Virus record (IMG/VR): IMGVR_UViG_3300033475_000031
Location: 1-52,841 of that record
Length of the DNA: 52,841 nt
Reading direction: 5' to 3' (one strand)
Origin: a virus
Taxonomy: Duplodnaviria; Caudoviricetes
Shown: piece after piece, positions 5,442 to 52,618 of the stretch
How positions within the stretch are numbered: position 1 is the first letter of the stretch
Layout of the letters: every line of letters begins with the position of its first letter
Position numbers and translations under genes: made by a program
Notes under the pieces: model-generated
What the model was told of the DNA's origin: nothing
The model's database searches: none
What the model saw: the letters and a program-made list of their open reading frames with translations, nothing else

Positions 5442-6746
5442 ATGGATATGTCGGCCATCGATCGCGTCCGCGAAAACGAGTTCATCGAGGAGATCAACCT
5501 TCGCGGCCACGACTTCTTCGAAGATCAGAAGTTCTTGGTGGCGGCCAGCTACTTTGAACGCTGCATGCTGAGCCGCCCGGACAACCCGACCTATACCGCC
5601 AACTATGGAGCCTGCCTGTGGCAGCTCGGGCGCTACGACGAGGCAGCGGCGCTGCTCAGCAAGGCAGCCGAGCGGTGGCCGGAATACGATGATGTCCGTG
5701 AGAACTACGGAAAGACGCTGACGACGCTGGAGCGTTTCCATGAAGCGGTCAACCAGTTCGACATCGTCCTCGGCCGCAACCCCGACAAGTTCAAGGTACT
5801 ACTGCAGCGGGCCTTCACCCGCCTCGACATGGGCGACTGGGAAAAAGGACTGGTCGATTACGAGGCCCGGCGACTGGTCAACAAGTACCAAGTGTTTCCC
5901 ATGCCGCAGTGGGATGGCGAGGACCTGACGGACAAGACGCTCTATGTGCAGAGCGAGCAGGGCGCGGGCGATACCTTCCTGTTCAGCCGGTACCTGTGGT
6001 GGATCAAGCAGAAGTGGCCGACCTGCACGATCAACCTCTGCTGCCACCATCAGCTGATCAAGCCGCTGTGGCAGTATGTCAGCCGGGGCATCGTGAACTA
6101 CAAACCCGAAGGCATTCCGTGGGAGGACAACAAGGCCGACTACGGAACGTACATGATGAGCTTGCCGCGCATCCATGGCACGCGGCCCGACACCATCCCG
6201 CTCGATCCGGGCCTGATCGAGCAGCGCTGCGTCGCGCAGGAGTTCGCCATTCCCAAGCCGGAACTGGGCAACCCGCTCAAGGTCGGCATCGTATGGAACG
6301 GCAACCCCGAGATGCGCGAGAACGGTCGCCGCTCGGTGCCGATCGAGAAGTTCATCGAGCTGTCGGGCGATCCGCGCTGGATGCTCTACAGCCTTCAGGT
6401 CGGTCCCGGCCGCGACGATCTCTATACCAGCTCGGGCAACGAATCGATTTGCGATCTCAGCAAGTGGGTGGGCCAGCCCTATGGCTTCGTCGCCACGGGC
6501 GCGTGCATGGCCAAGCTCGATCTCGTGATCACGATCTGCACCTCGGCTGCCCACCTTGCGGGCTGCATGGGCGTGCGTACTTGGGTACTACTCGGCAAGG
6601 AGCCGTATTGGATTTGGGGACGCCACGGTAATACCTCTGACTGGTACCCGAGCGTTCGACTGTTTCGGCAACCGGAGTTTGGCGACTGGGATAGCGTGTT
6701 CGACGAACTACGCGACCAGCTCGGCAAGCTCTACACGATGGTCTGA
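5442..6746 (+). CDS. TPR-repeat GT-B glycosyltransferase (GT9-like / FlmG-like architecture)
   Basis: N-terminal TPRs, then EQGAGD..FSRY, VGIVWNGNP, DLVITICT..HLAG.MG, W.W....SDWYPSVRLFRQ..GDW. Confidence 0.88.
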   Translation: MDMSAIDRVRENEFIEEINLRGHDFFEDQKFLVAASYFERCMLSRPDNPTYTANYGACLWQLGRYDEAAALLSKAAERWPEYDDVRENYGKTLTTLERFHEAVNQFDIVLGRNPDKFKVLLQRAFTRLDMGDWEKGLVDYEARRLVNKYQVFPMPQWDGEDLTDKTLYVQSEQGAGDTFLFSRYLWWIKQKWPTCTINLCCHHQLIKPLWQYVSRGIVNYKPEGIPWEDNKADYGTYMMSLPRIHGTRPDTIPLDPGLIEQRCVAQEFAIPKPELGNPLKVGIVWNGNPEMRENGRRSVPIEKFIELSGDPRWMLYSLQVGPGRDDLYTSSGNESICDLSKWVGQPYGFVATGACMAKLDLVITICTSAAHLAGCMGVRTWVLLGKEPYWIWGRHGNTSDWYPSVRLFRQPEFGDWDSVFDELRDQLGKLYTMV

Positions 6747-6804
6747 GCCATCTTGGTTCGCCCCCGATCACCCCTCTAACCCCCGATCAAGTTAGGAGAC
6801 TTCG

Positions 6805-7479
6805 ATGGCGAACGCCTCTGTCGTGACGTACCCCGGCCGCTCCATCCTGTGGAGCCGCATGAAGGGACTGGGCTCTGAGCCGCTGAACATCGGCTGGGGC
6901 ACCAGCGCCGTGACCGCGTCGGCTAACTCTGACGTGAACTTGTTCGCGCCAGCTACGGAAACGCGCGTCGCCGGCTCATCGACGGCGATCACCTCGACCC
7001 AGCTGGCCGACACCTATCAGGTGACCGGCACGCTGACCTGCCTTGTGGCTGGCAAGACCATCACCGAGGCCGGCCTGTTCGACACCACGACGCTGTCGGG
7101 GACGACCACGATCGCCTCGACGATCAGCACCAACGCGCAGACCAGCGTGACATTGGGCGCGGCGACCGGCCCCACGACCCTCAACTTCTACATGCAGATC
7201 GGCAACGAGGTCGTGCTCGTGACGGGTGGGCAGAACACCACCACGATCACCTTCTCGCGCGGCCAGCTCGGCTCGACAGCCGGCACGTCCTATCCGGTCG
7301 GCACGCCGATCACGGTGGGTGGTGATGGTGGTGCGCGCGCCAACTTCACGCTGGGCGGTCAGACCGCGACCGTCAACGCGGCGGCGGGCGGCAACATGTT
7401 CGCCCATGCTGACTTCGGTGGCATCGCCCTCAACGTGAACGACTCGATCCTGTTCACGTGGAAGGACACTCTGACCTAA
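6805..7479 (+). CDS. Thr-rich virion fibre/collar-type structural protein with an inserted beta module
   Basis: IGWGT...ETR...ITEAGLF...GNMFAH.DF...DSI.FT resembles tail-collar-fibre-like folds; AGGAG RBS. Confidence 0.65.
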   Translation: MANASVVTYPGRSILWSRMKGLGSEPLNIGWGTSAVTASANSDVNLFAPATETRVAGSSTAITSTQLADTYQVTGTLTCLVAGKTITEAGLFDTTTLSGTTTIASTISTNAQTSVTLGAATGPTTLNFYMQIGNEVVLVTGGQNTTTITFSRGQLGSTAGTSYPVGTPITVGGDGGARANFTLGGQTATVNAAAGGNMFAHADFGGIALNVNDSILFTWKDTLT

Positions 7480-7493
7480 GGGGTAGTACTACC

Positions 7494-8149: not shown

Positions 8150-8154
8150 CTGAA

Positions 8155-8664: not shown

Positions 8665-8693
8665 TTGCGTCACGCTAAGGGAGACTGACGCAA

Positions 8694-11600
8694 GTGACAA
8701 TGGTCTTCCTCACCAGCAGCTCGACATCGCCGTGGACTGCGCCATCGTCGATGACGGTGGCCGGCCATACGGTCGAGCTGGCGTCGTCGGGCGGCAATGG
8801 TGGAGCGAGTACTACTGGAACGTCGGGACGCGGCGGTTCGGGCGGTGGTGCTGGCGTCTACACTCTGCTCACGTATTCGAGTGGCACGATCACGCCCGGC
8901 ACGACGACGATTGCCTTTCAGGTCAAAGGCGGCAACAGCGCCACCAGCTACAGCGTCGCCAACTCGACCATCTGGGAAGGCACGACGGCCACCAATACCT
9001 ACGAGGCCAAGGCAGGCCTTGCAGGTGCCAACGCTTCGGCAAGCAGTACTACCGCTGGCGCGTTCGTCACCAACGGCACGCCCTCGATCACCTACACCGT
9101 CACGACGACGAATGCGGGTGGTGTTGGTGGGGCCACGGCGTCGGCCGCGACCGCGTCGGGTGGTGGCGGTGGTGGTCCCGGCGGACCGAGCGGCGTTGGA
9201 GGTGCAGGTGGAACGTCGGCTAGTGCATTTGGCGGTGGCGGTGGTGGTGGCGCTAACAATCGCTCTGCTGGCAGTAATGCTGCTGCAACCACTGGCGGCG
9301 CGGGTGGTGGCTCAGGCGGTGCAGGCGGCACCTCGGGGACCCACGTCGGCAGCCCCGGCACCAATGCCGGCTCAGGCGGCGGTGGCGGCTTCTATGGTTC
9401 GCAGACCAGCTCGGCCTCGACTGGCGGCGCGGGTGATACCAATGACGGGGCTTGGACCACCAACGGCCTAGGCGGTGGCGGCGGTGGTGGCGGAGGTAAT
9501 ACCTCTACTTCCGGTACGCCCTCGACCAGCGGCGGTGATGGCGGCACCTACGGTGCAGGCGGCGGCGGTGCAGGCTTCCGGCGCACGGCGGCGGGAACCG
9601 GGGCAGGTGGCAATGGCCAAGGTGGTCTCATTGTCATCACCTACACGCTCAACGTCTCGCTGCCATGGACGACCGACTACACCAACGCGGCGGCTCCCAA
9701 CGATGGAGCGATGACCTACGGCGGCGGGGCCAACGGCACCATCTGGAACAGCAGCGGCTTTGTGGTCGCGGCTCCTTCGTCCGGGCGCATCACCTACGAT
9801 CCGAATGCGACGACGAATCCCCTCGGGCTGCTGATCGAAGAATCTCGTACCAACGTCTCGCTGCAATCCAAGGATTTCAGCGCCGCCAACCACAATCCCA
9901 ACAATCTGACGGTTGCGGCCAACGCCACGACCAGTCCTGATGGCACGACCGACGCGGCATCGGCGACCGGCTCGGCCTCTACCGCGATCCATGAGTTCTT
10001 CACCGATCCCATCACCGGCATCAACACCTCGACCAGCGATGTCGTGGTGTCGTACATGCTCAAGAACAGCACGGCCGGCTTTGCTTACATCACGGCTTCG
10101 CCCAACAACACAACCAACGACTGGTTTGCTGCGTCGTACAATATTGGAGCGACACCGTCGGTCGGCAACACGTTGGTTGGCTCCAACAATCCGACGATCG
10201 TGGCGACAGGGGTAATACCCTATCCGAATGGCTGGGCGCAGTGCTGGGTGTCCGGCCGCCAGACGCTGGCCAACAACTTCGCCGCGCTGGTCGGTTATCT
10301 CGACAACACGACGCTGTCAGGGGGCGGCAGCTTTGGCGAGTTCACCAGCTCGGCCAGCAAGGTGTTCTTTCCGTTCCAGAACCAGATCGAGCTGGGCAGC
10401 TATCCATCGAGCCCGATCTTCACACTGGGCGCGTCGGTCACACGTTCCGCCGATACCTCGACGGTCACCGACAGTACGATCCTTGGCGCACGCGGCCTCG
10501 CGTTCTTCGGCCGGACGCCGATCGGCCTCAAGAGTGGCGTCACCGCGACGCTGATCCAAGCCGACGACGCATCATCGAGCAATCTGTGGCGACTATTCTA
10601 CAACTCCAGCAACGAGGTGCACTTCACCGTCGTCTCGGGCGGTACTACCCAGTGCGATCTCAATCTCGGCACAGTGGCGTTCAACACCGACTTCCATGTC
10701 CGCGTACGGTGGGGCACCAACGACTTCGCCGGCTCGTTGAACAATGCTGCCGTCATCACCGACACGTCGGGCTCGGTGCCGGCTGGCATCACCACCTACC
10801 GGCTGGGCTACGATCAGGCTGGCGGGACCTACTGGAACAGCACGATCGCCACGGTCACGTGGGCCACGACCTACACCAATGCGCAGCTGCAGGGCAGCTC
10901 AGGCACCCAGTACAATCAGGCGGTCTCGATCAGCTCGACCAATACCGCGACCTTGATGCGCGCGGCCGGGCATCTGATCAACGTCACGACGCCCGAGACC
11001 ATGCTGGTGCGCAAGGCGACTTCTAAGTTCATCGCTTCGGTCAATGCCAATTCGGCCAATCTCAGGAAGCAGGTGGGCAAGCCACTCAGCCTCAGTTCGC
11101 CCGAAGCGTTGACCGTGGTGCCGGGCAAGCAGGCCTTGAAGGCGATCAGCCTCGCCTCGACCACTACCTTGTCGCTGACCCGCCAGATCGGCCATCTCCT
11201 CTCGCTCAGCTCGGGCAATACCCTTCAGCTGGCCAAGCAGGTTGGGAAGACGATCAGCCTCGCAACTACGGAAGTGCTTAGCCTGATGAAGGCGATGCCG
11301 AGGTCGCTCAGCCTTTCATCGCCCAATGCCCTGACCCTCAGCCGCCAGATCGGGCATCTGCTGGCCATGGCCAACGCCAATGTGCTGGCACTCAGCCGCC
11401 AGATCGGCAAGGGCATCTCGCTCAGCTCGGCTTCTTCCGTAGCTGTGCTGCGTCAAGTATCCAAGGCGATCTCGATCAGCACCAGCAACCTACTCACACT
11501 GGTCAAGGGAAAGTCGCTCAGCAAGACGATTTCGATCACGTCACCCAATACCCTCACATTGGTTCGGACGGTTGGGAAGGTGTTCTCGATCAGCTCGGCC

Positions 11601-12635
11601 AACGCGCTGACCCTGTCGCGCTCGATCGGCAAGGCGATCAGCCTCTCAACTACGGAAGTGGTCACGCTAAGCAAGGGGCTGGCCAAGACCTTCGGCCTCT
11701 CATCGCCCAATGCCCTGACGGTCACGCACCAGCTGGCCAAGACCTTGAGCATCGCCTCGGGCAACGTTCTGACGCTCACGCGCCAGATCGGGCATATCGT
11801 CAATATCGGTTCAGCCGAGGTCGTCACGGTCGGCCGTGCCTTGGCCAAGACGATCGGACTCAGCTCCCCCAATACCCTGACGTTGCGGGTGGGCAAGGCG
11901 TTGAGCAAGGCACTCAGCCTCGCTTCGGCCAATACCCTCAGCCTGACGCGATCGGCCGGTAAGCAGCTCGGGCTCAGCTCGCCCAACGTCCTGACACTGC
12001 GACGCGGTATGGCCAAGACGATCGGGCTCACGAGTGGCTACGCGCTGGCAGTCGGGCGTGGCATGGCCAAGGCGATCGCGATCACGTCATCCAATACCCT
12101 GACCATGACGCGCCTCAAGGCGATCGGGGTGTTTCTCAATCTGTCGACGGGGCAGACGCTGGCCCTTTCCCGAAAACTCGGAAAGCTCATCACCCTATCT
12201 TCACAGATGCCCGTGAGCTTGGTCCGCAGTATCGGCAAGGTCGTGTCGCTTGGCTCGTCGAATGTCCTGACCGTCAGCGCGTTGCGAAGGGCTGGTGTCG
12301 TTATCCAGCTTGCAGGTGGGAACGTGCTGACGGTCGGACGCCAGCTCAGCAAGGTCATAGGGCTTCAATCGCCGCAGGTGCTGAGGCTTCAGCGCGGCCT
12401 CGCGCACCTCATCAGGCTCACGACGCACAACACGCTCACGCTGGTCGCTTCGATCCATGTCACGGTCGCGGTCGATCCTGAGCGCATCGTGCTTGCGGTC
12501 AAGCGGCTGCGCACGGCGGTGGATGATGGTCGCAAGCGCACGGCCACAGGCGTGAAGCGGCTGCTGGTGGCGCTCGACGTTGGCCGCGTTCGCATCGGCA
12601 AGGCCGCCAAGGCCCTACGCAGTTCTCAGGAGTAG
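8694..12635 (+). CDS. Large fibre/spike protein: Gly-rich domain, lectin-like head-spike domain, long beta-repeat stalk
   Basis: GGGGGG-rich N-terminus; GLLIEESRTN...QIELGSYPSSPI.T...VTRSAD; about 25 repeats of 19-21 aa. Confidence 0.8.
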   Translation: MTMVFLTSSSTSPWTAPSSMTVAGHTVELASSGGNGGASTTGTSGRGGSGGGAGVYTLLTYSSGTITPGTTTIAFQVKGGNSATSYSVANSTIWEGTTATNTYEAKAGLAGANASASSTTAGAFVTNGTPSITYTVTTTNAGGVGGATASAATASGGGGGGPGGPSGVGGAGGTSASAFGGGGGGGANNRSAGSNAAATTGGAGGGSGGAGGTSGTHVGSPGTNAGSGGGGGFYGSQTSSASTGGAGDTNDGAWTTNGLGGGGGGGGGNTSTSGTPSTSGGDGGTYGAGGGGAGFRRTAAGTGAGGNGQGGLIVITYTLNVSLPWTTDYTNAAAPNDGAMTYGGGANGTIWNSSGFVVAAPSSGRITYDPNATTNPLGLLIEESRTNVSLQSKDFSAANHNPNNLTVAANATTSPDGTTDAASATGSASTAIHEFFTDPITGINTSTSDVVVSYMLKNSTAGFAYITASPNNTTNDWFAASYNIGATPSVGNTLVGSNNPTIVATGVIPYPNGWAQCWVSGRQTLANNFAALVGYLDNTTLSGGGSFGEFTSSASKVFFPFQNQIELGSYPSSPIFTLGASVTRSADTSTVTDSTILGARGLAFFGRTPIGLKSGVTATLIQADDASSSNLWRLFYNSSNEVHFTVVSGGTTQCDLNLGTVAFNTDFHVRVRWGTNDFAGSLNNAAVITDTSGSVPAGITTYRLGYDQAGGTYWNSTIATVTWATTYTNAQLQGSSGTQYNQAVSISSTNTATLMRAAGHLINVTTPETMLVRKATSKFIASVNANSANLRKQVGKPLSLSSPEALTVVPGKQALKAISLASTTTLSLTRQIGHLLSLSSGNTLQLAKQVGKTISLATTEVLSLMKAMPRSLSLSSPNALTLSRQIGHLLAMANANVLALSRQIGKGISLSSASSVAVLRQVSKAISISTSNLLTLVKGKSLSKTISITSPNTLTLVRTVGKVFSISSANALTLSRSIGKAISLSTTEVVTLSKGLAKTFGLSSPNALTVTHQLAKTLSIASGNVLTLTRQIGHIVNIGSAEVVTVGRALAKTIGLSSPNTLTLRVGKALSKALSLASANTLSLTRSAGKQLGLSSPNVLTLRRGMAKTIGLTSGYALAVGRGMAKAIAITSSNTLTMTRLKAIGVFLNLSTGQTLALSRKLGKLITLSSQMPVSLVRSIGKVVSLGSSNVLTVSALRRAGVVIQLAGGNVLTVGRQLSKVIGLQSPQVLRLQRGLAHLIRLTTHNTLTLVASIHVTVAVDPERIVLAVKRLRTAVDDGRKRTATGVKRLLVALDVGRVRIGKAAKALRSSQE
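10915..12460 (+). repeat. Tandem 19-21 aa protein repeats, consensus R-x-I-G-K-x-I-S-L-S-S-x-N-x-L-T-L
   Basis: Seen directly in the translation, e.g. RQIGHLLSLSSGNTLQL, RSIGKAISLSTTEVVTL, RTVGKVFSISSANALTL. Confidence 0.9.
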
Positions 12636-14745: not shown

Positions 14746-17376
14746 ATGGCTGACGACTTCAAGACGGTGAAGCCGCCCAGTGCGCTGACCCGCTCGATCC
14801 AGCGCGTGCGCACGACCATCAAGGGCGTGAGTGAGGCGTGGTTCGGGCCGATGCAGCCCCTCAAGCCGCAGGCGCAGGACGCCAAGGGCCGCATCTGGGA
14901 CTACCCGGTCGCGTTCAACCTCAACTACCAGCCGCGCGCCAACATGGCGCTGTCGTTCCATGACCTGCAGGCGTTGGCCGACAACTGTGGCATCCTGCGC
15001 TCGGTGATCGAGACGCGTAAGGATCAGCTGGAGTCCATCGACTGGCATATCCAGCCGCGCAAGGTGAACAAGAAAACCGTTCTTCCGAGCGGCGATCAGA
15101 ATGATCGCATCAAGTACGCCTCGCAGCTGTTCATGTCGCCCAGCAAGGAGACCGACTGGCCGCAGTTCGTGCGCCAGATTCTGGAGCAGCATTTCGTCTA
15201 CGATGCACCGTCACTGGAGATGGTGCCCAATCGCTCGGGCCAGCTGTGCAACATCAAGGTACTGGATGGGGCGACGATCAGCGTCATGCTCGATGCCAAC
15301 GGCGGCATCCCGTCGCCGCCGAGCGTTGCCTACCAGCAGGTGTTGAAGGGCCTGCCGGCCGTCGACTTCACCAGCGACGAACTTCTCTACTACCCGCGCA
15401 ATCGCCGGCCGGGCTTCGCCTACGGCTACCCGCACGTGGCGCAGATTTACACCTACGTGAATCTCTCCATCAAGCGCGTCACCGAGCAGCTGGCCGCCTA
15501 TGATGGAGCCAATGCGCCGCACGGCGTGATGGAAGCCGGCACCAACATGACGATCGACCAGATCACGGCGATGCAGCAGTACTGGGACGGCATGTTCACC
15601 GGCAAGATCGTGAACCGGGCCAAGACGTGGTGGGTGCCCAACGGTTCGAAGTACACCGCACTCGGGGCCGGCGAAATCCTGTTCGACGAGTTCGACGAAT
15701 GGCTGGCCCGCGTCATCTGCTACTGCTTCTCGATCAGCCCGACGCCGTTCATCAAGCAGAACAACCGGGCGACTGCCGAGTCCTCGCAGGACATGGCACA
15801 GAACGAGGGCACCAAGCCGACGATGGTGTACCTCAAGCACCTGTTCGATCGCATCCTGAGCAAGCATCTCAACTCGCCCGATCTTGAATTTGTGTGGGAC
15901 CACGATTTCGAGACCGATCCCGCGCAGGCGGCCGAGATCACGACGACCTACGTCAAGAGCGGCATCATGACGATCGACGAGGCGCGCGAGGATTTGGGCA
16001 TGGATGCCTTTGGCGGCGCGGCCGGCGAGCCGATGGCGTTGACGGCGACCGGCTACGTCCCGATCGACCCGCAGGAGCGGACCGACATGGGGACCGAGGC
16101 GAGCATTGCTGCACGCCCCCTGCTGCCCCCGGGAATGGGCGCTCCCGGCCAGCCCGGCCAACCCGGGGGAGGCAAGGCCTTGGCAGGGCCCAATGGCGGG
16201 GCTGGCAAGCCCAACGCAGCACTTCCGCCCCCGGGCAAGGGTGGAGGGGCCGTCCCCGGGAAACCCGCCCTACAGGCCCCGCAGGGCCGTCCCGCAGCCG
16301 CCCCCGCGCAGGCCCGGGCAACGGCTTCAGTCAGTGTGAAAAAGCCCGGCCAGCCGGTCCAGAAGGTCCTGACTACGGAAGCGGTCTACGAGGTCGAGCG
16401 TCCGCTCGCCAATCCGGGCGGCCTGCAGGACTGGGCCCGCTCGATCGGCCTACAGCCGCTCGATCGTCTGGTGGTCAAATTCACCGGCTTCGTCGAGCCC
16501 GAGGCGACTGAGCCCTTTCTGCTGGTCGAGAACTACACCGCGCGGCTGGCCAAGGATGAGGATGGCTTCCGGCTCTACTTTGACTGGCAGCCGCTGCTCG
16601 ATCGCGCCAGCGAATTGCTGGCGGTCGACGGCACGCCCTCGATCCTGCTGACTGATCCGACCGATGCCGAGCTGCCTGAGGATGCGCAGGCCTACACGGG
16701 TGAGCTACTACTCGGGCCGGAAGAGATCACCAAGCGCTGGGACCTTGCGGCGTTCGACGCCGATCATGATCCGACGCCGGGCCAGAAGCGCGCCGGCAAC
16801 TACCGCATGGGCCACATCCAGTTCCAAGGCCTCGACCTCAGCATCGAGAACCCGGTCGGCTCGGCGCGGCGCGGTGACGACTGGAAAGTGATCATGCCGC
16901 ACCACTACGGCTACATCAAAGGCACGGTGGGCGCGGACGGCGATCATATCGATGCCTTCGTCGGACCGAACCCCGATGCCAAGATGGTCTATGTCATCGA
17001 CCAGAACGATCCTGATCGTGGCTCGTTCGACGAGCACAAGGTGATGCTCGGCTTCGACACGTGGACGGCGGCGAAGCTCGCCTACCAGCAAGCCTTCACC
17101 GATGGCAAGCAGCGCATCGGCAACGCGGCGATGCTGACCATGGACGCGTTCAAGCGCTGGCTCGCGACAGGCGACACTATGTTGCCGATCGGTGTGGCCA
17201 TGGCCAAGGACGTGACGATGGCGACCGGCCTCTATGGCTACGACCAAGGTCCGGTCCTGACGCCGCACGAGAAGCAGACGGACGAAGAGGATGAGAACAA
17301 CGATGTCGTGAGCGCTGGTCCGCAACCAGTACTCAAGAGCGACGCTCGACGCTTCTCGCGCTGGGTGGACTACTAG
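14746..17376 (+). CDS. Portal protein fused to a Pro/Gly linker, a degenerate Acb1-like 2H domain and an inorganic pyrophosphatase-like domain
   Basis: Portal core (YGYPHV...ARVICYCFSISP...GIMTIDEARE.LG); InPase motifs GNYRMGH...IENP.GS.R...HYGYI.GT.GADGDHID.FVG...FDEHKVMLGF. Confidence 0.9.
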   Translation: MADDFKTVKPPSALTRSIQRVRTTIKGVSEAWFGPMQPLKPQAQDAKGRIWDYPVAFNLNYQPRANMALSFHDLQALADNCGILRSVIETRKDQLESIDWHIQPRKVNKKTVLPSGDQNDRIKYASQLFMSPSKETDWPQFVRQILEQHFVYDAPSLEMVPNRSGQLCNIKVLDGATISVMLDANGGIPSPPSVAYQQVLKGLPAVDFTSDELLYYPRNRRPGFAYGYPHVAQIYTYVNLSIKRVTEQLAAYDGANAPHGVMEAGTNMTIDQITAMQQYWDGMFTGKIVNRAKTWWVPNGSKYTALGAGEILFDEFDEWLARVICYCFSISPTPFIKQNNRATAESSQDMAQNEGTKPTMVYLKHLFDRILSKHLNSPDLEFVWDHDFETDPAQAAEITTTYVKSGIMTIDEAREDLGMDAFGGAAGEPMALTATGYVPIDPQERTDMGTEASIAARPLLPPGMGAPGQPGQPGGGKALAGPNGGAGKPNAALPPPGKGGGAVPGKPALQAPQGRPAAAPAQARATASVSVKKPGQPVQKVLTTEAVYEVERPLANPGGLQDWARSIGLQPLDRLVVKFTGFVEPEATEPFLLVENYTARLAKDEDGFRLYFDWQPLLDRASELLAVDGTPSILLTDPTDAELPEDAQAYTGELLLGPEEITKRWDLAAFDADHDPTPGQKRAGNYRMGHIQFQGLDLSIENPVGSARRGDDWKVIMPHHYGYIKGTVGADGDHIDAFVGPNPDAKMVYVIDQNDPDRGSFDEHKVMLGFDTWTAAKLAYQQAFTDGKQRIGNAAMLTMDAFKRWLATGDTMLPIGVAMAKDVTMATGLYGYDQGPVLTPHEKQTDEEDENNDVVSAGPQPVLKSDARRFSRWVDY

Positions 17377-20895: not shown

Positions 20896-20927
20896 AAACG
20901 CTTCCGTAGCTGAAGCGCCCGGCCCCG

Positions 20928-26559: not shown

Positions 26560-26569
26560 TCCGTAGCCG

Positions 26570-29164: not shown

Positions 29165-29235
29165 TCATTGATAACGCTCACTGGGGCCAGCTTCCGTAGT
29201 TGGGGCTGGCCCATATCACGCTCAAAGGAGAACAG

Positions 29236-41602: not shown

Positions 41603-42412
41603 ATGCCTTTCGATGGCGTGAAGCGCAGCTACGGATGCTTGCGCGACGTGAAGGACCTGCTCAACGACTGGCAAGCGGCAGACCATCCTCAGCTGTTCAA
41701 GGCTGCGCACCTTCCCGACGTGATGACCGAGCAGGAGCAATGGCTTGGCCCGGCGCTCGATCAAGGCATCGAAGGCAGCTGCACGGCGCATGGGCCGGGA
41801 TGTGGCGCGCACATCCTGATCAACAAGCGCCACACCACCTACGACTTCGCCATGTCGATGAACTTCCAGTACTTCAACGCACGTTGGTTGGAAGGCACCA
41901 TCAAGTCGGATAGCGGGGCCCAGATACGAAACGCCATCAAGGCGATGAACAAGTACGGCATCTGTAGCGACGAGCTGTGGCCCTACGATCCCAAGACGAT
42001 GTTCAACAAGCCGACGCCTGAGGCGTACATCGATGCGCTTCAGTACAAGGTGCTCGACTACTACCGCGTGAGCGTCGACCAGAACGCGATCAAGCAGGTG
42101 ATCGCCTCGGGCTATCCGCTGGTGATCGGTATCTCGATCTACGAGAGCTTTGAATCCCCTCAGACTGCCGAGAGTGGCGTCGTGCCTCTGCCGCAGAAAG
42201 GCGAGGACCTGATGGGCGGCCACTGTATGTGTGTCTACGGCTACGATCAGGAGGGCGCACACGTGCGCAACAGCTGGGGCCCGGCATGGGGCAAGAACGG
42301 CAGCTGCCTGATCCCATGGAACTATATCGCCAATCCACAATTCGGCAGCGACTACTGGGCACTCCGGGTTTTTGGTAGCGATGCTGAGCTGAAAGCTGGT
42401 ACTGCTGCTTGA
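41603..42412 (+). CDS. Papain-like cysteine peptidase (C1A)
   Basis: DQG..GSC, GGHCM...GYD, VRNSWG..WG..G. Confidence 0.92.
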   Translation: MPFDGVKRSYGCLRDVKDLLNDWQAADHPQLFKAAHLPDVMTEQEQWLGPALDQGIEGSCTAHGPGCGAHILINKRHTTYDFAMSMNFQYFNARWLEGTIKSDSGAQIRNAIKAMNKYGICSDELWPYDPKTMFNKPTPEAYIDALQYKVLDYYRVSVDQNAIKQVIASGYPLVIGISIYESFESPQTAESGVVPLPQKGEDLMGGHCMCVYGYDQEGAHVRNSWGPAWGKNGSCLIPWNYIANPQFGSDYWALRVFGSDAELKAGTAA

Positions 42413-43661: not shown

Positions 43662-43902
43662 CGCTTGCACGGTCAACACGGGTGGGGTCAGTCACGAGCC
43701 CTTCGTCCCGCCCGGGCCGCCAGCTACGGAAGCCGCTCGGGGCATCTGCGAGGCCCTGCGTCCTGAGTTCCCCATCCCCTTTCACGGCGGGCGACTGGCC
43801 AAGGGCAGGGAGTATGGCGAGGCCGACCCGGCCGCCGACCGGGCCGACACGGTGCTGCGCATCAAGCGGGTAAATGCCCGCTATGATGCAATTTGCAGTT
43901 AA
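43615..43902 (+). CDS. Lipoprotein (o-spanin-like)
   Basis: VILTISMLSA-C lipobox, Pro-rich, C-terminal N..Y.A.C. Confidence 0.6.
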   Translation: MLALSSSVILTISMLSACTVNTGGVSHEPFVPPGPPATEAARGICEALRPEFPIPFHGGRLAKGREYGEADPAADRADTVLRIKRVNARYDAICS

Positions 43903-44329: not shown

Positions 44330-44734
44330 ATGAAACGCAGGTTCTGGATCGCCCTTGCCGCCTTCGTCGTTGTAGCTTCCGTAGTTGGCTGGGGGCTCGA
44401 CATCCGCTCGTTCGGCCATTCCTTCAACATCGATGCGGCCGACGAACTGGTGCCGGCCAAAACGACCTACAACGAGGCGGTGGATTTGATCGGATATCCG
44501 GTCAAATACGAGCGTTTCGGAACGTTTAGGGAGCGCAGGAGTGCTAACTGGTCCCATCTACTCCAAGTCTCTTTCTTCCACATCAACCTCTACTACCGCA
44601 CCAAGCTTCTCATTGTTTTCTTCGACAGTTCTAACGTGATGGACTTGGTCGCCCCAGCGACCGAGGTGAGGACTCTAAGCATTCTCGATGGCAACAAGGA
44701 GCATGTCATACAGAACGGCTTCAATAAGCCTTGA
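44330..44734 (+). CDS. Membrane-anchored paralogue of the preceding BamE-like protein
   Basis: F..D.A..LVP..TT..EA...IG.P shared with 43977-44324; TM anchor without lipobox. Confidence 0.7.
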   Translation: MKRRFWIALAAFVVVASVVGWGLDIRSFGHSFNIDAADELVPAKTTYNEAVDLIGYPVKYERFGTFRERRSANWSHLLQVSFFHINLYYRTKLLIVFFDSSNVMDLVAPATEVRTLSILDGNKEHVIQNGFNKP

Positions 44735-44760
44735 GGCCCGATCCCTAGCTACGGAAGCAG

Positions 44761-46920: not shown

Positions 46921-47114
46921 GCTGAGAATGGATCGCATCCCCAAACCCCCGTTTGTCCCCGGGATGCACAGGCTGTGAATTGCCCAGCTACGGAAAAGGG
47001 GCCATAGGCCTTTAAAGGCCTTAGGGAGGGTTATGCAGGGGCAGGAATTTACCGGCTACTCGGGTACCAGCCTGTTTGCCGCAACCCACAGAATCTAAGA
47101 TTTACCGGGTTGGC

Positions 47115-47966
47115 CTACGGCCTGACCTGTCGAGGTCCGGTCGGCCCGAGGTCCCGGGGGCTCAGAACCTGAGGAAGCCCTTCTGGAAGTAGGGCTATAC
47201 GGGCGTCCCCGGACGGCAGGCAGACCATGTTGCTGCAGACGACGTTGGGAAAAACGTTCTCGGCCGCGCCCCGGAAGTTGCCCGGCTGGAAGAGATCGAC
47301 CACGTGCCACCAGCAGCGATAGTTGATCTGCTGCAGGAACCGGATCAGCTCGGCACTGAGCGGCCCGCCGTTGTTCTCGACATAGAGGATCGGCCGGCTG
47401 GTGCCGATGATGCCCGAAGCCCCGAGGAGCGTCGGCAGCTCCATCCCCTCCACATCGGCCTTGATCAGCGCAATGTGCTCCTGCGTGCCGGCGAAGGTAT
47501 CGAGCTTCACCGTCTTGACGGGGCGACCGACGCCGGGCGGACCAAGCATCACGCCGCCGAAGTTCTCAGGGCTTCCGTAGTCGAGCACAGGAACCGACAG
47601 CGTGCCGTCCTTGAGCGAGGTCCCGGCTGAAAAGGCGCTGACGTTCCGGCAGTCATTCTCCTTCAGGTTCAGGGTCAGAAGCGCGTAGACCACGGGCTGC
47701 GGCTCGAAAGCTAGTACTACTCCATTCGGCCCGACACGCTTGGAAAGCGCCACGGTGTCGGCCCCGATGTTGGAGCCACACTCGATCACCCTGTCGCCCG
47801 GCTGCAGCAGTGTGAGCAGCAGGTCCATTTCCGGCTGGCACCATTCACCGTAGACCTTGAGCGATTTGCCCACGTACACGTCATGGGCCAGCCACGCCAT
47901 CGGCCCATAGCGGCATTCGTCCGACTCGATCGGGTACATCGGCGCGTCGGACTTGTCGTCGTTCAT
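47115..47966 (-). CDS. FkbM-family methyltransferase
   Basis: CRYG.M.....D.YVG.SL..YGEW...E, VIECGSNIG, AFEPQ, ENFGGV, LIKADVEGME..L.GA, RP.LYVEN. Confidence 0.9.
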   Translation of the reverse strand: MNDDKSDAPMYPIESDECRYGPMAWLAHDVYVGKSLKVYGEWCQPEMDLLLTLLQPGDRVIECGSNIGADTVALSKRVGPNGVVLAFEPQPVVYALLTLNLKENDCRNVSAFSAGTSLKDGTLSVPVLDYGSPENFGGVMLGPPGVGRPVKTVKLDTFAGTQEHIALIKADVEGMELPTLLGASGIIGTSRPILYVENNGGPLSAELIRFLQQINYRCWWHVVDLFQPGNFRGAAENVFPNVVCSNMVCLPSGDARIALLPEGLPQVLSPRDLGPTGPRQVRP

Positions 47967-48770: not shown

Positions 48771-48779
48771 TCGGGACAA

Positions 48780-49101: not shown

Positions 49102-49131
49102 GACCAACCTCATTCGGCCGGGGGTAGTAGT

Positions 49132-49542
49132 TTAGCGAACGTGGTAGTCCGCTACTCGCTCGACCCGGGCCTGCGGCTCGGGACGATTTGCTGAGGGCGT
49201 GCCGGCGTCGGGAATTCTCTCCGCAAGCTTGCTCGCATCGTGCATGTCGGTCGCCGGGATTTCGTCGTTGGGGCGCGTTCCGTAGGTGAGCAGCGCCTGA
49301 CGCAGGATGCGGCGCTCGGCATCCGTAGTCTGAAGGACGACCGTCCCGGTCTCGGGAACGCCGATGCGATCGAGCAGCATCGCACCGATGCGCATGATCT
49401 CGACGTTGCGATCGACCTTGCCGGGCTTGGGGACGAAGCTCGGATCGTACCGCTGCTCGGCATGACGCCGATAGGCGGTCAGGGCGCGGATCACGAGCGC
49501 GCGGCTCGTGCCGGCGATGCTCAGTTCTATGATCTCACTCAT
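49132..49542 (-). CDS. Early hypothetical protein with internal duplication
   Basis: AAGGAG RBS; two similar helices (R.LVIRAL.AY and RRILRQALLTY). Confidence 0.7.
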   Translation of the reverse strand: MSEIIELSIAGTSRALVIRALTAYRRHAEQRYDPSFVPKPGKVDRNVEIMRIGAMLLDRIGVPETGTVVLQTTDAERRILRQALLTYGTRPNDEIPATDMHDASKLAERIPDAGTPSANRPEPQARVERVADYHVR

Positions 49543-49544
49543 GA

Positions 49545-50474
49545 CTACTCTCCTTGCTCTTCCTTCAACTGTCGGATTACCCGGCGCAGGGCCCGGCGTT
49601 CCTCTCGCGTGATCTTCCAGCTGGGGTCCTGTGTGATGATTTCCAAGTCCTTCAGGGTGAACTCATTTAGACCCATGCCGTCCAGTACCCCGTCTTCGTC
49701 GACTACGGAAGTATCGAAAGGCAAAGGCTCGGCTTCAACTTGCTTGGCCTTGATTGCCTGCTGGTAAATCTTGTCCGCCTCCTTGGCCTCGCTCACAGCG
49801 TCTCCCAGCTTGTTCAGCGGGAAGCCGAAGCGTGCGTAGCCGGCCGCGATCTTTTCCAAATAGTCGCCCGAGGGCGGAATGAGCCGGCCCTTGGGCTTCT
49901 GGTAGTAGAGCACGTCCCTCCAGTTGCCGCGCGGCGTGAAGAACTTGAAGGTCTTTTTATGGTACGACCCACTACCCACCCCTTCGAACTTGTCGAGCCA
50001 TTGCTCGTCCTCGGGATGGATCAGCCACATGAACCCGGGAACCGAGTCGGTCTCAGCCCCCTCGACGATGTTGGCGTACCGCTGGAACTCCAGCTTGAAG
50101 CCGGGCAGCTCGTGCGGGTAGAGCTTGGTCGCGCCCGGGCAGCGATGCCGCATCTGACTTTCCAGCAGGTTGCTGCCATAGGCGAAGTAGATGCGCCGAT
50201 CGACGCGCGGGGTATACACAGGCGTGCTATGAGCCTTCACCCGAACGTGCGGCCGCACCTGCCGATCATGTATCCACGCATCGAAGTCCCGGCTGCCCAT
50301 TGGTGTTGCAAGGCGAGTGCTCTCCCGCTGCTCACGCTCCAACCGCTCCTCGCGCTCAGCGATCAGCTTGGCCAACCGTGCCTCCTCGCGATCCCAGTTG
50401 CCCTGCGTCTTGGCAAGGTATTGGGTAGGACTGACAATCCGGTTTGACTTCTCTTTCCACTTTTTCTTACTCAT
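49545..50474 (-). CDS. Gamma-glutamylcyclotransferase-like protein (AIG2/GGCT) with N- and C-terminal extensions
   Basis: YFAYGSNL...QM..RCPGA, LDKFEG...Y, PS..YL..I..GY..FG. Confidence 0.88.
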   Translation of the reverse strand: MSKKKWKEKSNRIVSPTQYLAKTQGNWDREEARLAKLIAEREERLEREQRESTRLATPMGSRDFDAWIHDRQVRPHVRVKAHSTPVYTPRVDRRIYFAYGSNLLESQMRHRCPGATKLYPHELPGFKLEFQRYANIVEGAETDSVPGFMWLIHPEDEQWLDKFEGVGSGSYHKKTFKFFTPRGNWRDVLYYQKPKGRLIPPSGDYLEKIAAGYARFGFPLNKLGDAVSEAKEADKIYQQAIKAKQVEAEPLPFDTSVVDEDGVLDGMGLNEFTLKDLEIITQDPSWKITREERRALRRVIRQLKEEQGE

Positions 50475-51622
50475 GCTGCCTCACTCGACTGGCTTTCCTC
50501 AACCAGTACCCCAGCCAACCTCTTGAAGTGGTTTTGCCGGGCCTTGTAGTACTCTGTCACCTCGGGAGGTATCCCAAGGAACACATTCTCGACCACGGGC
50601 GGTGCCGGGGGAGCCTCCTCGGCTGAGCCCGGCTCAATCGCATAGACGTACTTGCACCGCTCCGTGTCCCGATTCGGGTTGTTGAGCTTTATCAGCCCAA
50701 ATTTCTTATCCTTGAAGTGCTGCAGGATCACGCTGATCTGCGTCAGGTCCTGTTTGACCAGCTCGCTCAGCTGATCCCGCGTCAAGCCTACGGTCGTGTT
50801 GAGTAGTAGCTCGGCGACCCGATAGGATTTCGTCACCTCGCCCCGGTAGGTTTTCTTGATTGCCTTCAGCACGTCGGCGGCGCTGTTGTATTTCTTCATC
50901 AGCTGCGGAGCCGTGCCGAGAATGACCGTGCCGCGTGCCTTGGCGATCGTGGTCTCGACAAAGGCGACACAGAACTTGACCCAGTTGATGATCTTGTCGG
51001 CCTCGATCGTTCCTTGATGGTGCCGGAACTCGATCGTCGGGTGGCCGTGCGAGGCCGTCAGCAGGTTGAGCTTGGTATAGCGATTGTAGCCGTACATTCT
51101 GCCAGCGGCGTACTCGATGGTCCGCGTGAGGTTCACCAGAGCAGGCGCGTTCCGCCAGTTTCTAAGGCCTTGGCAGTAGATGCCGCCGCCGATCGCACCG
51201 CCATTGTCGCCCCGCCGCGACGCGGACATCATCCAGTCCAGTTCGGCCTCGTGCTGGGCGTAGCGCAGGAACACGTTGGCCTTCTCCTGCTCGCTCATGC
51301 CCGCGTGGCCGATGTGCACATGCATGCCGCATGTCTTGTTGATCCTGAAGCCGGCTTCAACCAGTACTGCGGAAACCTTCCGTAGCTGGTCCAGCCCCGC
51401 GTCCCCGGAGAGGACCGGACTCACCAGCTCGCAGCCGTCCATCACGGTTGCGTCGCTGGTCACCTTCCATTGCCCCGTCGTTATGTGGCTGTAGCCTGCA
51501 TCATAGCAGGGAACGCCCTTGGCACTCAGCAGTCGGGCGAGGCTCGCTTGTGAGCGGATCGAGCCGTCTGCTGGATAGGCGATTTCCAGTTCGACGCCAA
51601 AGGTTCTGTTGCTTACGAGCAT
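50471..51622 (-). CDS. Putative amidoligase (COOH-NH2 ligase, Amidoligase_2); a longer in-frame form from 52618 is possible
   Basis: RTFGVELE, WK...DAT, ELVSPVL, CGMHVH, RY.KLN, TIEFRHHQGT; own promoter and CCGAATGAGG leader before ATG 51622. Confidence 0.9.
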   Translation of the reverse strand: MLVSNRTFGVELEIAYPADGSIRSQASLARLLSAKGVPCYDAGYSHITTGQWKVTSDATVMDGCELVSPVLSGDAGLDQLRKVSAVLVEAGFRINKTCGMHVHIGHAGMSEQEKANVFLRYAQHEAELDWMMSASRRGDNGGAIGGGIYCQGLRNWRNAPALVNLTRTIEYAAGRMYGYNRYTKLNLLTASHGHPTIEFRHHQGTIEADKIINWVKFCVAFVETTIAKARGTVILGTAPQLMKKYNSAADVLKAIKKTYRGEVTKSYRVAELLLNTTVGLTRDQLSELVKQDLTQISVILQHFKDKKFGLIKLNNPNRDTERCKYVYAIEPGSAEEAPPAPPVVENVFLGIPPEVTEYYKARQNHFKRLAGVLVEESQSSEAA

Positions 51623-52618
51623 TGATCTAGCCTCATTCGGCTGTGGTTCAGCTACGGAAGATATAGGGCTTGGGGTAGTACCCGTCAAGCCCCTTTCTAT
51701 ACGGGTATTTTCATCAGGAATTACTTGGTCCAGAAAACGTCGATATTCCTGAAATTGTTCGGGTATCATCGCCGATCGATAGAATGAAAGCGGATCGATA
51801 TCGGGCGTGGGCTCAGCTCGACCAAAAGTCGGATCGGCCCGGCCGGGGAATGGAGGCCGAGGGCGTTCAGCAGTGGGGATCGCCCAGATATAAACCTCAT
51901 CAGCATCGGACCCCATAGGCCGATATTCCCGGCTGAACGAAAAGCAAAGGTTTCCCGGGGAGGAGTTTGAAGGATGGTCGGGGCCAAAAAATACACCGAA
52001 GGGCTCCCACAACATCCTTCCGCTGCTGATGAGCCGAGCGTGAGTGGAATCGAGCGGAAGCCTTGGCCAGTTGAACCTATCGCTCAGCTCGCGCGCGCAG
52101 TCGCGTATGAAGGCTGATGACACACGGCCATCAAGCGCGAAGTATCTTGAGCTTCTTAGTCCTTGAGCTGGAGCGGTAGCGACGGTGTTGGTCTGATCTA
52201 TTGAAGTGACTGTGTGGCTGACCGTGGCTTGCGGCAATGATTCGGGTAGTAGCCATCTCCATTCGCGAGCGGGCTGAATGTCCGAAGTATCACGCCAAGT
52301 TAAACATCCAGCATTGCCGCCTATAGCGGTGGGTCCGTAGAAATGTCCATCCGCATACGGCACCCTGTTGTCGACGAGTAACGTTCCTTCAGGCAGCTCT
52401 CCTAGAATGCCTTCTCGCGCGAGAAAGCTGATCGCTGCATGAACTACGTTCGGATCAATAGCAGGGCGTGGACGTTGGCCAAGTGCGCGTACTCCCTCCA
52501 TTGCTCGACGAATGATTGCGCCCGAAGCTTCCATCGTCGAGCGCGTCCTATTGATCTCAGCGTTCGTTATGGTGGTGTTGACGGAAGGTGGAGTGGGACG
52601 GCGAGGACGGCGCGGCAT
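51623..52618 (-). CDS. In-frame ~330 aa N-terminal extension of the amidoligase frame, unknown function
   Basis: No stop codon across ~1 kb of lower-GC DNA; weak repeats (F.GP.......L...R......W..P). Confidence 0.5.
51660..51688 (-). promoter_or_regulatory. Sigma70-like promoter inside the long reading frame
   Basis: TTGACG-17-TATATC; GGGTACTACCC adjoining the -35; CTACGGAA site at 51652-51659 at the expected transcription start. Confidence 0.7.

What the first reader, a model, noticed from the sequence alone, without database searches (positions are those of the whole stretch)
5705..51659. Dispersed 8-mer CTACGGAA at about 20-fold excess, in several reading frames and on both strands
Manual count found 26 exact copies. 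Plus strand: 5705, 6140, 6953, 11266, 11650, 16373, 17932, 18410, 26456, 32628, 43724, 44749, 46988, 49703, 51652. Minus strand: 11435, 20902, 27607, 29192, 33024, 35261, 35486, 38579, 44377, 47573, 51378. A base-composition estimate at ~62% GC gives about 1.3. The usual context is RRCTACGGAAR, and CTACGGAT variants occur near 3048, 26560, 26957, 41629 and 49321. It is read as A/T-T-E, S-V-A/V, N/D-Y-G and Q-L-R-K, often forcing codons that are otherwise uncommon here (GTA, CTA, ACT, GCT). It also lies in intergenic DNA beside terminators (20902, 44749), inside a hairpin (29192) and at a predicted transcription start (51652). That points to selection on the DNA, not the protein. It is not strand-polarised, unlike Chi, KOPS or mycobacteriophage stoperators. 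Inference: it is the site of a phage-encoded genome-organising, silencing, partitioning or self-marking protein.
Basis: partly seen in the sequence, partly recalled or inferred. Interest (0 to 1): 0.85.

Follow-up and report, generated by a model that had tools for sequence, protein, structure and literature searches.

The report
Private 12-base word saturating a soil phage
An uncultured soil phage keeps 27 copies of one strict DNA word, written into its genes through rare synonymous codons on both strands; it looks like the recognition site of an unknown DNA-reading protein, but no function or binding protein could be assigned.

Summary
Shuffles that keep every protein give about 0.65 coding copies against 22 observed. 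Of 57 codon contexts that could spell the word synonymously, 22 do. The conserved unit is longer: C-A-R-CTACGGAA-G, with 14 full copies. Spacing and orientation look random.

The record is a metagenomic siphovirus-like contig, about 87% complete, with no close relatives. Conservation in relatives could therefore not be tested.

The word is rare in every bacterial genome sampled: at most 110 copies per genome in 402 genomes. A full IMG/VR scan found no other phage carrying it.

Density (1 per 1.96 kb) and two-strand spread match Chi in phage P1 (31+/19-). But P1's Chi sites carry no flank information (0.35 bits against 4.4 here).

Best reading (0.4): the site of a phage-specified, sequence-specific DNA-binding or DNA-processing protein. 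Main rival (0.18): the unknown host's Chi-like word. A second dispersed word, GGTANTACC, also exists.

The parts
5705..5712 (+). exact copy, coding, sense (N-Y-G-K) in TPR-protein gene
6140..6147 (+). exact copy, coding, sense (D-Y-G-T), same gene
6953..6960 (+). exact copy, coding, sense (A-T-E-T), gene 6805-7479
11266..11273 (+). exact copy, coding, sense (T-T-E-V), 1313-aa gene; paralogous with 11650
11435..11442 (-). exact copy, coding, antisense (S-S-V-A), 1313-aa gene
11650..11657 (+). exact copy, coding, sense (T-T-E-V); repeat partner of 11266
16373..16380 (+). exact copy, coding, sense (T-T-E-A), portal gene
17932..17939 (+). exact copy, coding, sense (L-R-K-R), Mu F-like gene
18410..18417 (+). 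exact copy, coding, sense (A-T-E-I), Mu F-like gene
20902..20909 (-). exact copy, intergenic, 18 nt before terminator-like hairpin 20927-20951
26456..26463 (+). exact copy, coding, sense (A-T-E-A); the 99.75% identical contig L214 holds as many copies as this window does in that stretch
27607..27614 (-). exact copy, coding, antisense (L-S-V-V); the 99.75% identical contig L214 holds as many copies as this window does in that stretch
29192..29199 (-). exact copy, intergenic, within a hairpin formed by flanking complementary arms
32628..32635 (+). exact copy, coding, sense (N-Y-G-S), tape-measure gene
33024..33031 (-). exact copy, coding, antisense (G-S-V-A)
35261..35268 (-). exact copy, coding, antisense (A-S-V-V)
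35486..35493 (-). exact copy, coding, antisense (P-S-V-V)
38579..38586 (-). exact copy, coding, antisense (A-S-V-A), tail-tip J-like gene
43724..43731 (+). exact copy, intergenic by my gene calls (inside an alternative ORF 43579-43902)
44377..44384 (-). exact copy, coding, antisense (A-S-V-V)
44749..44756 (+). exact copy, intergenic at the convergent junction, just before an 11-bp-stem hairpin
46988..46995 (+). exact copy, intergenic, about 70 nt upstream of minus-strand promoter-like site 46920-46892
47573..47580 (-). exact copy, coding, sense (D-Y-G-S), FkbM-type methyltransferase gene
49703..49710 (+). exact copy, coding, antisense (T-S-V-V), GGACT-domain gene
51378..51385 (-). exact copy, coding, sense (L-R-K-V), amidoligase gene; near-inverted partner CTGCGGAA at 51367
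51652..51659 (+). exact copy, antisense in long ORF 50471-52660; lies between the GGTAGTACC box (51674) and the leader CCGAATGAGG of an internal start at 51622
3038..3045 (+). variant CTACGGAT
26559..26566 (-). variant CTACGGAT
26956..26963 (-). variant CTACGGAT with CAA flank, at a permissive S-V context
41629..41636 (+). variant CTACGGAT with CAG flank
49321..49328 (-). variant CTACGGAT

Best explanation
The word is the core of an asymmetric recognition site at least 12 bp long (consensus Y-C-A-R-CTACGGAA-G). It is read by a sequence-specific protein that belongs to this phage lineage, not to a host-wide system.

Selection has written the site into the genome wherever the proteins allow it, on either strand and without regard to transcription. 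The site therefore works independently of orientation, as a genome-wide mark on double-stranded DNA. The likeliest action is as loading or nucleation points for a protein that binds, coats or identifies phage DNA.

Shown: the excess, its independence from protein coding, the extended consensus, the absence of polarity, and the rarity of the word in sampled bacteria and other phages.

Inferred: that a protein reads it, that the protein is phage-encoded, and what binding achieves.
For: Excess and independence from coding:
- 27 copies against 0.68.
- 22 coding copies against about 0.65 under protein-preserving shuffles.
- 22 of 57 permissive codon contexts spell the word exactly, 3 are one mismatch away and 32 are two or more away. 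The distribution is bimodal, with 0.62 expected. Rare codons are used to do this.

Extended site:
- Flanks are conserved across four reading frames: -3 C 22/27, -2 A 22/27, -1 A or G 26/27, +1 G 19/27.
- The flanks carry 4.4 corrected bits, against 0.35 bits around the 50 Chi sites of phage P1.
- Exact copies outnumber all 24 one-mismatch variants together (27 against 16), whereas in P1 the figures are 50 against 122.
- Position 8 tolerates T (5 copies against 1.7 expected).

Private to this lineage:
- 8-mer counts reach at most 84 and at most 110 per genome in 201 + 201 sampled genomes, almost always below the reversed-word control.
- The 12-mer occurs at most 2 and at most 3 times per genome in 401 + 401 genomes, against 14 in this 52.8-kb record.
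- 5 further genomes hold 49-115 copies of the 8-mer each, fewer than the reversed-word control in 4 of the 5 and about equal in the fifth.
- The nearest cultured phages have 0 copies.
- 80 TerL-related IMG/VR loci hold 10 copies in 934 kb.
- A complete IMG/VR scan with a 16-mer version gave 22 stretches. The only one similar to this phage is a 99.75% identical fragment of it.

A second dispersed word: the palindrome GGTANTACC occurs 20 times against 5.4 in shuffles. It also sits in early-promoter regions, which shows that this genome embeds protein-site-like words in coding DNA.
Against: - No candidate reader was found. No HTH protein, repressor, ParB, nuclease or DNA methyltransferase was recognised among about 65 ORFs scanned with Pfam and/or PHROGs. 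Many ORFs have no family at all.
- The record is classed linear and about 87% complete, so genes may be missing.
- The host is unknown, so a host-wide word cannot be excluded. The genome samples cover only two classes, drawn evenly, plus 5 single genomes.
- Known dispersed phage repressor sites (stoperators) are intergenic and tied in orientation to transcription. Here 22 of 27 sites are coding, 13 sense and 9 antisense.
- Density and two-strand spread equal those of Chi in P1.
- Conservation in diverged relatives could not be tested.
Confidence: 0.4

Rival explanations
1. Chi-like word of the unknown host. The phage has no recombination module of its own. It has accumulated the host RecBCD/AddAB hotspot so that linear injected or replicating DNA is protected and recombined into circles or concatemers, as proposed for P1, LLS and MD8.
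For: - The core is a strict octamer. It is the second most frequent octamer of the genome.
- Density is 1 per 1.96 kb, against 1 per 1.86 kb in LLS and 1 per 1.90 kb in P1 (PMC12315714, section 15).
- P1 carries its 50 Chi sites on both strands, 31 + and 19 - (my count).
- No recombinase, exonuclease or RecBCD inhibitor was recognised.
- TerL is of the Terminase_3/6 type and a Mu F-like head protein is present. From general knowledge this is compatible with headful packaging, in which both orientations would be useful.
- Chi is unknown for most Proteobacteria (abstract of PMC8022716).
Against: - Flanks carry 4.4 bits here against 0.35 bits at P1's Chi sites, and exact copies exceed their one-mismatch neighbours, unlike in P1. 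The unit is at least 12 nt, while from recall known Chi words are 5-8 nt.
- The word is rare, and usually rarer than its reversed control, in all 402 sampled genomes of the two classes. In 5 further genomes it is rarer than the control in 4 and about equal in the fifth.
- LLS and MD8 show strong strand bias and right-end clustering (20/3 and 32/0). Here spacing and orientation are random-like.
- The word is not G-rich, unlike the Chi words quoted in that paper.
- The contig is only about 87% complete, so a Rec module may lie in the missing part.
Confidence: 0.18
2. Recognition sites of a phage nicking system (localized single-strand interruptions as in T5, phiKMV-like phages and phage tf), here acting on both strands.
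For: - Known nick motifs are strict 7-19-nt words dispersed through coding DNA. Phage tf has 14 copies of TACTRTGMC, its one-mismatch variants are few (three in all) and they are not cut (PMC3517423 passages).
- That is the same sharpness of core as seen here.
- The function of such nicks is itself unknown.
Against: - In tf, T5 and phiKMV-like phages all sites lie on one strand only. Here the split is 15 + and 12 -.
- No nuclease or HNH gene was recognised (family scans listed above).
- Only contigs, not raw reads, were available, so read ends could not be examined. The table of molecule ends was empty.
Confidence: 0.12
3. A host word of another kind, such as an uptake-signal-like sequence or another host architecture or defence-related word, inherited by a phage that evolves under the same pressure as its host chromosome.
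For: - The anatomy resembles uptake sequences (features recalled, not read here): a strict core with semi-conserved flanks, both strands, about 0.5 per kb, mostly coding, with some copies beside hairpins or terminators.
- Sites 20902, 29192 and 44749 lie beside or inside hairpins, and there is one near-inverted pair at 51367/51378.
Against: - No sampled genome carries the 12-mer more than 3 times (802 genomes) or the 8-mer above 0.022 per kb.
- A genome-contig scan with a 15-mer version returned 120 stretches scattered over many phyla, 107 of them with a single 8-mer copy in the held stretch.
Confidence: 0.08
4. Target of a sequence-specific DNA modification (self-marking chemistry), for example by the FkbM-type methyltransferase or the amidoligase/GGACT early genes.
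For: - The early region encodes an FkbM-family methyltransferase, an amidoligase and a gamma-glutamyl cyclotransferase-like protein.
- A strict core is typical of modification enzymes.
Against: - From general knowledge, these families are not known as DNA-modifying enzymes.
- Modification targets are not normally enriched, and nothing links these genes to the word.
Confidence: 0.05
5. Chance, protein-sequence repeats or an assembly artefact.
For: - Two of the 27 copies (11266, 11650) are in a repeated protein segment.
Against: - 0 of 100 dinucleotide shuffles and 0 of 1000 codon shuffles come near the observed count.
- The other flank pairs are unrelated (at most 18 of 34 bases identical).
- The sites recur in independent assemblies.
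- The highest 8-mer z-scores among 24 other phage loci of 15 kb or more (median 8.7, maximum 15.5) come from tandem repeats, not dispersed words.
Confidence: 0.01

Closest known systems
Chi sites accumulated in phages without a recombination module (P1, LLS, MD8; Zheng et al. 2025, PMC12315714)
   Same: - Strict octamer core that is among the most frequent octamers of the genome.
- About 1 site per 1.9 kb, mostly inside genes.
- In P1, both strands are used (31/19).
- No Rec module recognised here.
   Different: - The unit here is at least 12 nt with informative flanks (4.4 against 0.35 bits).
- The word is rare in all sampled bacterial genomes.
- There is no end clustering or strand bias as in LLS and MD8.
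- The sequence is unrelated to known Chi words.
Stoperators of Cluster A mycobacteriophages (13-bp asymmetric sites of a monomeric repressor; PMC9283540)
   Same: - More than 20 copies of an asymmetric site of about 13 bp, spread over the whole genome, private to a phage lineage and read by a phage protein.
   Different: - Stoperators lie in promoters and short intergenic gaps, and their orientation follows transcription.
- Here 22 of 27 sites are inside genes, 13 sense and 9 antisense.
- No repressor was found.
Localized nick motifs of T5, phiKMV-like phages and phage tf (PMC3517423)
   Same: - Strict, dispersed, enriched word inside coding DNA, with very few near-variants and an unknown biological role.
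   Different: - All known nick motifs sit on one strand only; here both strands are used.
- Nicks could not be examined.
DNA uptake sequences of Neisseriaceae and Pasteurellaceae
   Same: - Core of 9-12 nt with semi-conserved flanks, both strands, of the order of 1 per kb, mostly coding, with some copies at hairpins.
   Different: - Those words saturate the host chromosome. No sampled chromosome carries this one.
- A phage has no obvious use for an uptake signal.

Membership tests
Chi-rich Rec-less phages (P1/LLS class) | Strict octamer that is among the most frequent octamers of the phage, at about 1 per 1.9 kb | tested here: met
   27 copies, rank 2 of 19,585 octamers, 1 per 1.96 kb; reference values from PMC12315714 section 15
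Chi-rich Rec-less phages (P1/LLS class) | The same word is abundant in the host chromosome | tested here: inconclusive
   The host is unknown. At most 84 and at most 110 copies per genome in 201 + 201 sampled genomes of two classes, and 49-115 copies per genome in 5 others, below the reversed-word control in 4 of those 5
Chi-rich Rec-less phages (P1/LLS class) | Recognition confined to the octamer (no flank information) | tested here: not met
   Flank information 4.4 bits here against 0.35 bits at the 50 P1 Chi sites
Chi-rich Rec-less phages (P1/LLS class) | Strand bias or end clustering (LLS, MD8) | tested here: not met
   15 + and 12 -, gap CV 0.956 against 0.951 simulated, orientation P = 0.41. 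P1 itself is 31/19, so this feature does not hold for every member.
Chi-rich Rec-less phages (P1/LLS class) | No recombination module or RecBCD inhibitor | tested here: inconclusive
   None recognised by Pfam or PHROGs, but many ORFs have no family and the record is about 87% complete
Stoperators | More than 20 asymmetric sites of about 13 bp across the genome | tested here: met
   27 sites; asymmetric consensus of at least 12 bp
Stoperators | Sites in promoters and short intergenic spaces | tested here: not met
   22 of 27 sites lie inside called genes
Stoperators | Orientation correlated with the direction of transcription | tested here: not met
   13 sense and 9 antisense among the coding sites
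Stoperators | Cognate monomeric repressor with an HTH and a second DNA-binding domain | tested here: inconclusive
   No HTH or repressor family hit in any scan; ORFs without a family were not folded
Localized nick motifs (T5, tf, phiKMV-like) | All motif copies on one strand | tested here: not met
   15 + and 12 -, against the top strand only in tf
Localized nick motifs (T5, tf, phiKMV-like) | Physical single-strand breaks at the motif | not testable with these tools
   Only assembled contigs of the runs were available
Uptake sequences (DUS/USS) | The word saturates the host chromosome | tested here: inconclusive
   Not found in the genomes searched; host unknown
Polar words (KOPS and similar) | Strand polarity switching at defined points | tested here: not met
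   Best two-arc agreement 20 of 27, P = 0.41

The most novel reading that the evidence does not exclude
A phage keeps its own private 'self' word. This would be a 12-bp asymmetric signature, driven to about 40% of all synonymous opportunities on both strands and read by a still unknown phage protein. The protein would mark or load onto phage DNA regardless of transcription. It would be the phage-owned counterpart of Chi or uptake sequences. A second, palindromic word (GGTANTACC) would work alongside it as operator and dispersed site.
Probability: 0.3. Interest if true: 0.8.

Novelty: new variant of a known kind. Interest (0 to 1): 0.62.

Why it matters
Dispersed strict words are rare windows onto DNA-level selection in viruses. 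Each known case exposed a mechanism: Chi for host recombination, stoperators for genome-wide silencing, nick motifs for a process still not understood.

Here the signal is unusually clean. Rare codons are used at 22 of 57 possible places, and the word is private to one uncultured soil phage lineage.

If a phage protein reads it, this is a new way for a virus to label its own DNA. If it is the host's Chi-like word, the phage reveals the recombination hotspot of an uncultured bacterium and could help assign the host. Either outcome can be tested with a 24-bp oligonucleotide.

Tried and rejected
Relatives for a conservation test:
- megablast against phage records found nothing.
- A portal search in IMG/VR found none.
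- A portal search in metagenome contigs gave one 38% relative (L082, 1 copy of the word in 15 kb) and a 1.1-kb fragment (L083) that does not cover a site.
- TerL relatives are only about 50% identical.
- Laying contigs of four runs on 5001-25000 showed a strain about 99.7% identical, which is too little divergence. The stretch 11004-12337, which holds three sites, was barely covered. No conclusion is drawn from this.

Host identification:
- No tRNA genes.
- The runs that hold the phage are soil and rhizosphere metagenomes.
- The protein atlas gave only portal families.
- Tail-tip and portal similarities point loosely to phages of Proteobacteria.

Other ideas tested and dropped:
- An 8-kb Myxococcota locus with 4 copies (L112) proved to be a chance cluster without the flanks and without homology to this phage.
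- A leading-strand-like switch of orientation near 20 kb is not significant.
- Local folding around the sites is slightly more stable than around random windows (-23.0 against -19.7 kcal/mol). This was not controlled for the C-rich flanks, so it is not used.
- High 8-mer z-scores in other phage loci (L010, L044) turned out to be tandem protein repeats.

Literature:
- The search for the word itself returned 2,035 papers. The 25 listed were unrelated by title, apparently primers and other sequences, so I make no claim about what is in print.
- My recollection that the nicks of phage tf lie on both strands was wrong and was corrected from the paper.
- Supplementary tables of PMC12315714 (per-phage Chi counts) are closed. 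I counted P1 myself.

Full report
What the record is. The window is a whole virus record of 52,841 bases with G+C 0.60. IMG/VR classes it as linear, and CheckV estimates it about 87% complete. Soil and rhizosphere metagenome runs hold it.

Genes run rightward from about 225 to 44,734 and leftward from about 52,800 to 44,885. Recognised products are:
- terminase large subunit (Terminase_3/6), a portal fused to an InPase domain, a Mu F-like head protein, and a protease/capsid-like protein;
- a tape measure, a lambda J-like tail tip, adaptor and neck proteins, and two glycoside-hydrolase-like tail genes;
- a cold-shock protein, a TPR protein, and an ART-PolyVal domain protein;
- in the leftward early block, an amidoligase, a GGACT-domain protein and an FkbM-type methyltransferase.

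No replication, recombination, integrase, repressor, nuclease or DNA-methylase family was recognised, and many ORFs have no family at all. The nearest cultured relatives are distant. TerL is 49% identical to two Synechococcus phages. The portal is 39% and the tail tip 34% identical to Brevundimonas phages, and the tail tip is about 35% identical to Acinetobacter and Pseudomonas phages.

The observation. CTACGGAA occurs 27 times, 15 on + and 12 on -.
- Dinucleotide shuffles give 0.68 copies (largest 3 of 100).
- An order-3 Markov model gives 0.96 (z 26.5), the most exceptional 8-mer of the genome.
- By raw count the word is the second most frequent of 19,585 octamers.
- In 1000 shuffles that permute synonymous codons within each gene, the total averaged 5.65 with a maximum of 10. 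Five of those copies are fixed intergenic ones, so about 0.65 coding copies are expected against 22 observed.

I then listed every place where the encoded peptide would allow the word by synonymous choice. There are 57. Of these, 22 spell it exactly, 3 are one mismatch away and 32 are two or more away. Codon usage predicts 0.62 exact copies. The word is built from rare codons: GTA is 6.5% of Val codons, GGA 7.3% of Gly, CTA 4.3% of Leu and TCC 14.8% of Ser. It is read as T-E (6), Y-G (5), L-R-K (2) and, antisense, S-V (9). Two copies (11266, 11650) lie in a repeated protein segment and share origin; the other flanks are unrelated. Selection on the DNA itself is therefore established.

Anatomy of the site. 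The conserved unit is longer than eight bases.
- C is at -3 in 22/27 sites, A at -2 in 22/27, A or G at -1 in 26/27, and G at +1 in 19/27, with a C-rich tendency further upstream.
- The 12-mer CARCTACGGAAG occurs 14 times, 7 on each strand.
- One-mismatch variants of the core are scarce (16 in all), except CTACGGAT (5 copies against 1.7 in codon shuffles).
- Spacing is indistinguishable from random (gap CV 0.956 against 0.951).
- Orientation shows no regional pattern (best two-arc split 20/27, P = 0.41; runs P = 0.68).
- Five sites are intergenic. One lies 18 nt before a terminator-like hairpin. One lies within a hairpin formed by flanking complementary arms and one lies just before a strong hairpin.

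Is it a host word? The host is unknown, so I looked for any genome rich in the word.
- A scan of the species-representative genome collection with a 15-mer version returned 120 stretches spread over many phyla. Of these, 107 held a single 8-mer copy in the held stretch.
- Five whole genomes behind those hits hold 49-115 copies of the 8-mer each, fewer than the reversed-word control in 4 of the 5 and about equal in the fifth.
- The tail and portal similarities point to phages of Proteobacteria, so I sampled two classes evenly. One is centred on a genome titled Alphaproteobacteria, the other on one titled Pseudomonadales.
- The 12-mer occurs at most 2 and at most 3 times per genome in 401 + 401 genomes.
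- The 8-mer reaches at most 84 and at most 110 copies per genome in 201 + 201 genomes. That is at most 0.022 per kb against 0.51 per kb in the phage, and almost always below the control.

These are samples, so the word was not found in those searched; it is not shown to be absent from the classes.

Is it in other phages?
- 0 copies in 50 kb each of the Brevundimonas and Synechococcus phages, whose own top 8-mers reach only z 10 and z 6.
- 10 copies in 934 kb of 80 TerL-related IMG/VR loci.
- A complete IMG/VR scan with a 16-mer version gave 22 stretches. The only one similar to this phage is a 99.75% identical fragment of it. Five other records checked whole hold 1-5 copies.
- Among 24 other phage loci of 15 kb or more, the top 8-mer z-score has median 8.7 and maximum 15.5, and the two highest are tandem protein repeats.

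Comparison with Chi-rich phages. Zheng et al. 2025 (PMC12315714; I read the abstract, sections 6, 15 and 18, and further passages) show that phages lacking a recombination module accumulate the host's Chi octamer. LLS has 23 sites (1 per 1.86 kb), P1 has 50 (1 per 1.90 kb) and MD8 has 32. [quoted passage not shown]

The density here, 1 per 1.96 kb, is strikingly similar, and no Rec module was recognised. LLS and MD8 are strongly strand-biased and clustered at one end, unlike this phage. However, I counted P1 myself and found 31 + and 19 -.

What does separate the two is the flank test. Around P1's 50 Chi sites, 16 flank positions carry 0.35 bits in all; here they carry 4.4 bits. P1 has 122 one-mismatch neighbours for 50 exact sites; here there are 16 for 27. 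The unit read here is at least 12 nt. Together with the rarity of the word in sampled genomes, this lowers the Chi reading but does not remove it. Chi is unknown for most Proteobacteria (abstract of PMC8022716).

Comparison with other dispersed phage words.
- Stoperators are more than twenty asymmetric 13-mers bound by a monomeric repressor. They lie in promoters and short intergenic gaps, with orientation tied to transcription (PMC9283540 passages). Here 22 of 27 sites are inside genes, 13 sense and 9 antisense.
- Nick motifs of tf, T5 and phiKMV-like phages are equally strict and enriched, but all lie on one strand (PMC3517423 passages).
- The site therefore works like these systems, as a private strict word read by a protein. 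It fails a defining feature of each family.

A second word. GGTANTACC, a palindrome, occurs 20 times against 5.4 in codon shuffles (maximum 9 of 500). Of its 15 coding copies, 14 are in one frame (GGT-ANT-ACC). Its G/C-centred form lies in the early intergenic promoter regions next to a repeated leader, CCGAATGAGG. One copy lies between the hexamers of a promoter-like site at 46920-46892. This genome therefore embeds at least one operator-like word in coding DNA, which makes a phage-protein reading of CTACGGAA more plausible.

Verdict. The finding is real, not protein-driven, not polar and, as far as could be searched, private to this phage.
- Most likely (0.4) it is the site of a phage-specified, sequence-specific DNA-binding or DNA-processing protein that acts independently of orientation.
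- The main rival (0.18) is a Chi-like word of the unknown host.
- Nicking (0.12), another host word (0.08) and modification (0.05) follow.
- The reader protein, the host and conservation in relatives remain open.

Noticed in passing
window 6627-51682 (20 copies, e.g. 6627, 9495, 36687, 39677, 40106, 43919, 43947, 45289, 46511, 46899, 51674): A second dispersed word, the palindrome GGTANTACC, occurs 20 times against 5.4 in protein-preserving shuffles. 14 of its 15 coding copies are in frame GGT-ANT-ACC. G/C-centred copies sit in early promoter regions, which looks like an operator that is also scattered through genes.
   Followed up: partly
window 46484, 46873, 48731, 49108, 51631 (+ strand text) and 52719 (-): Six copies of CCGAATGAGG (as read on the coding strand) lie just upstream of start codons of early genes, several preceded by GGGTASTACCC boxes. 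This is a repeated promoter/leader/RBS unit. One unit lies inside the 729-aa ORF and implies an internal start at 51622 for the amidoligase domain.
   Followed up: partly
whole window: GATC occurs 491 times against 381 (sd 12) in codon-preserving shuffles. GANTC occurs 89 times.
   Followed up: no
window 13218-14744 and about 17390: Strain variation was seen. A contig of run X1 replaces 13218-14744 (weak coding signal, lower GC3) with about 1120 other bases. Metagenome fragment L083 (95-98% identical) has about 820 extra bases between the portal gene and the next gene.
   Followed up: no
window 14746-17376, 17380-19740, 19745-20782: The portal is fused to an InPase domain typical of polyvalent proteins. 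It is followed by a Mu F-like protein and an ART-PolyVal ADP-ribosyltransferase-domain protein. These are probably virion-delivered proteins.
   Followed up: no
window 47115-52660 (-): The early block encodes an amidoligase (PF12224), a gamma-glutamyl cyclotransferase-like protein and an FkbM-type methyltransferase, with no recognisable replication genes.
   Followed up: partly
window 8694-12635: The 1313-aa protein has Gly-rich runs and an internal repeat (the segments compared lie 384 nt apart). ORF 8146-8688 just upstream has an unusually low GC3 (0.46).
   Followed up: no
window 32848-34118: Two adjacent paralogous glycoside-hydrolase-like genes (phrog_2913) follow the tape measure.
   Followed up: no
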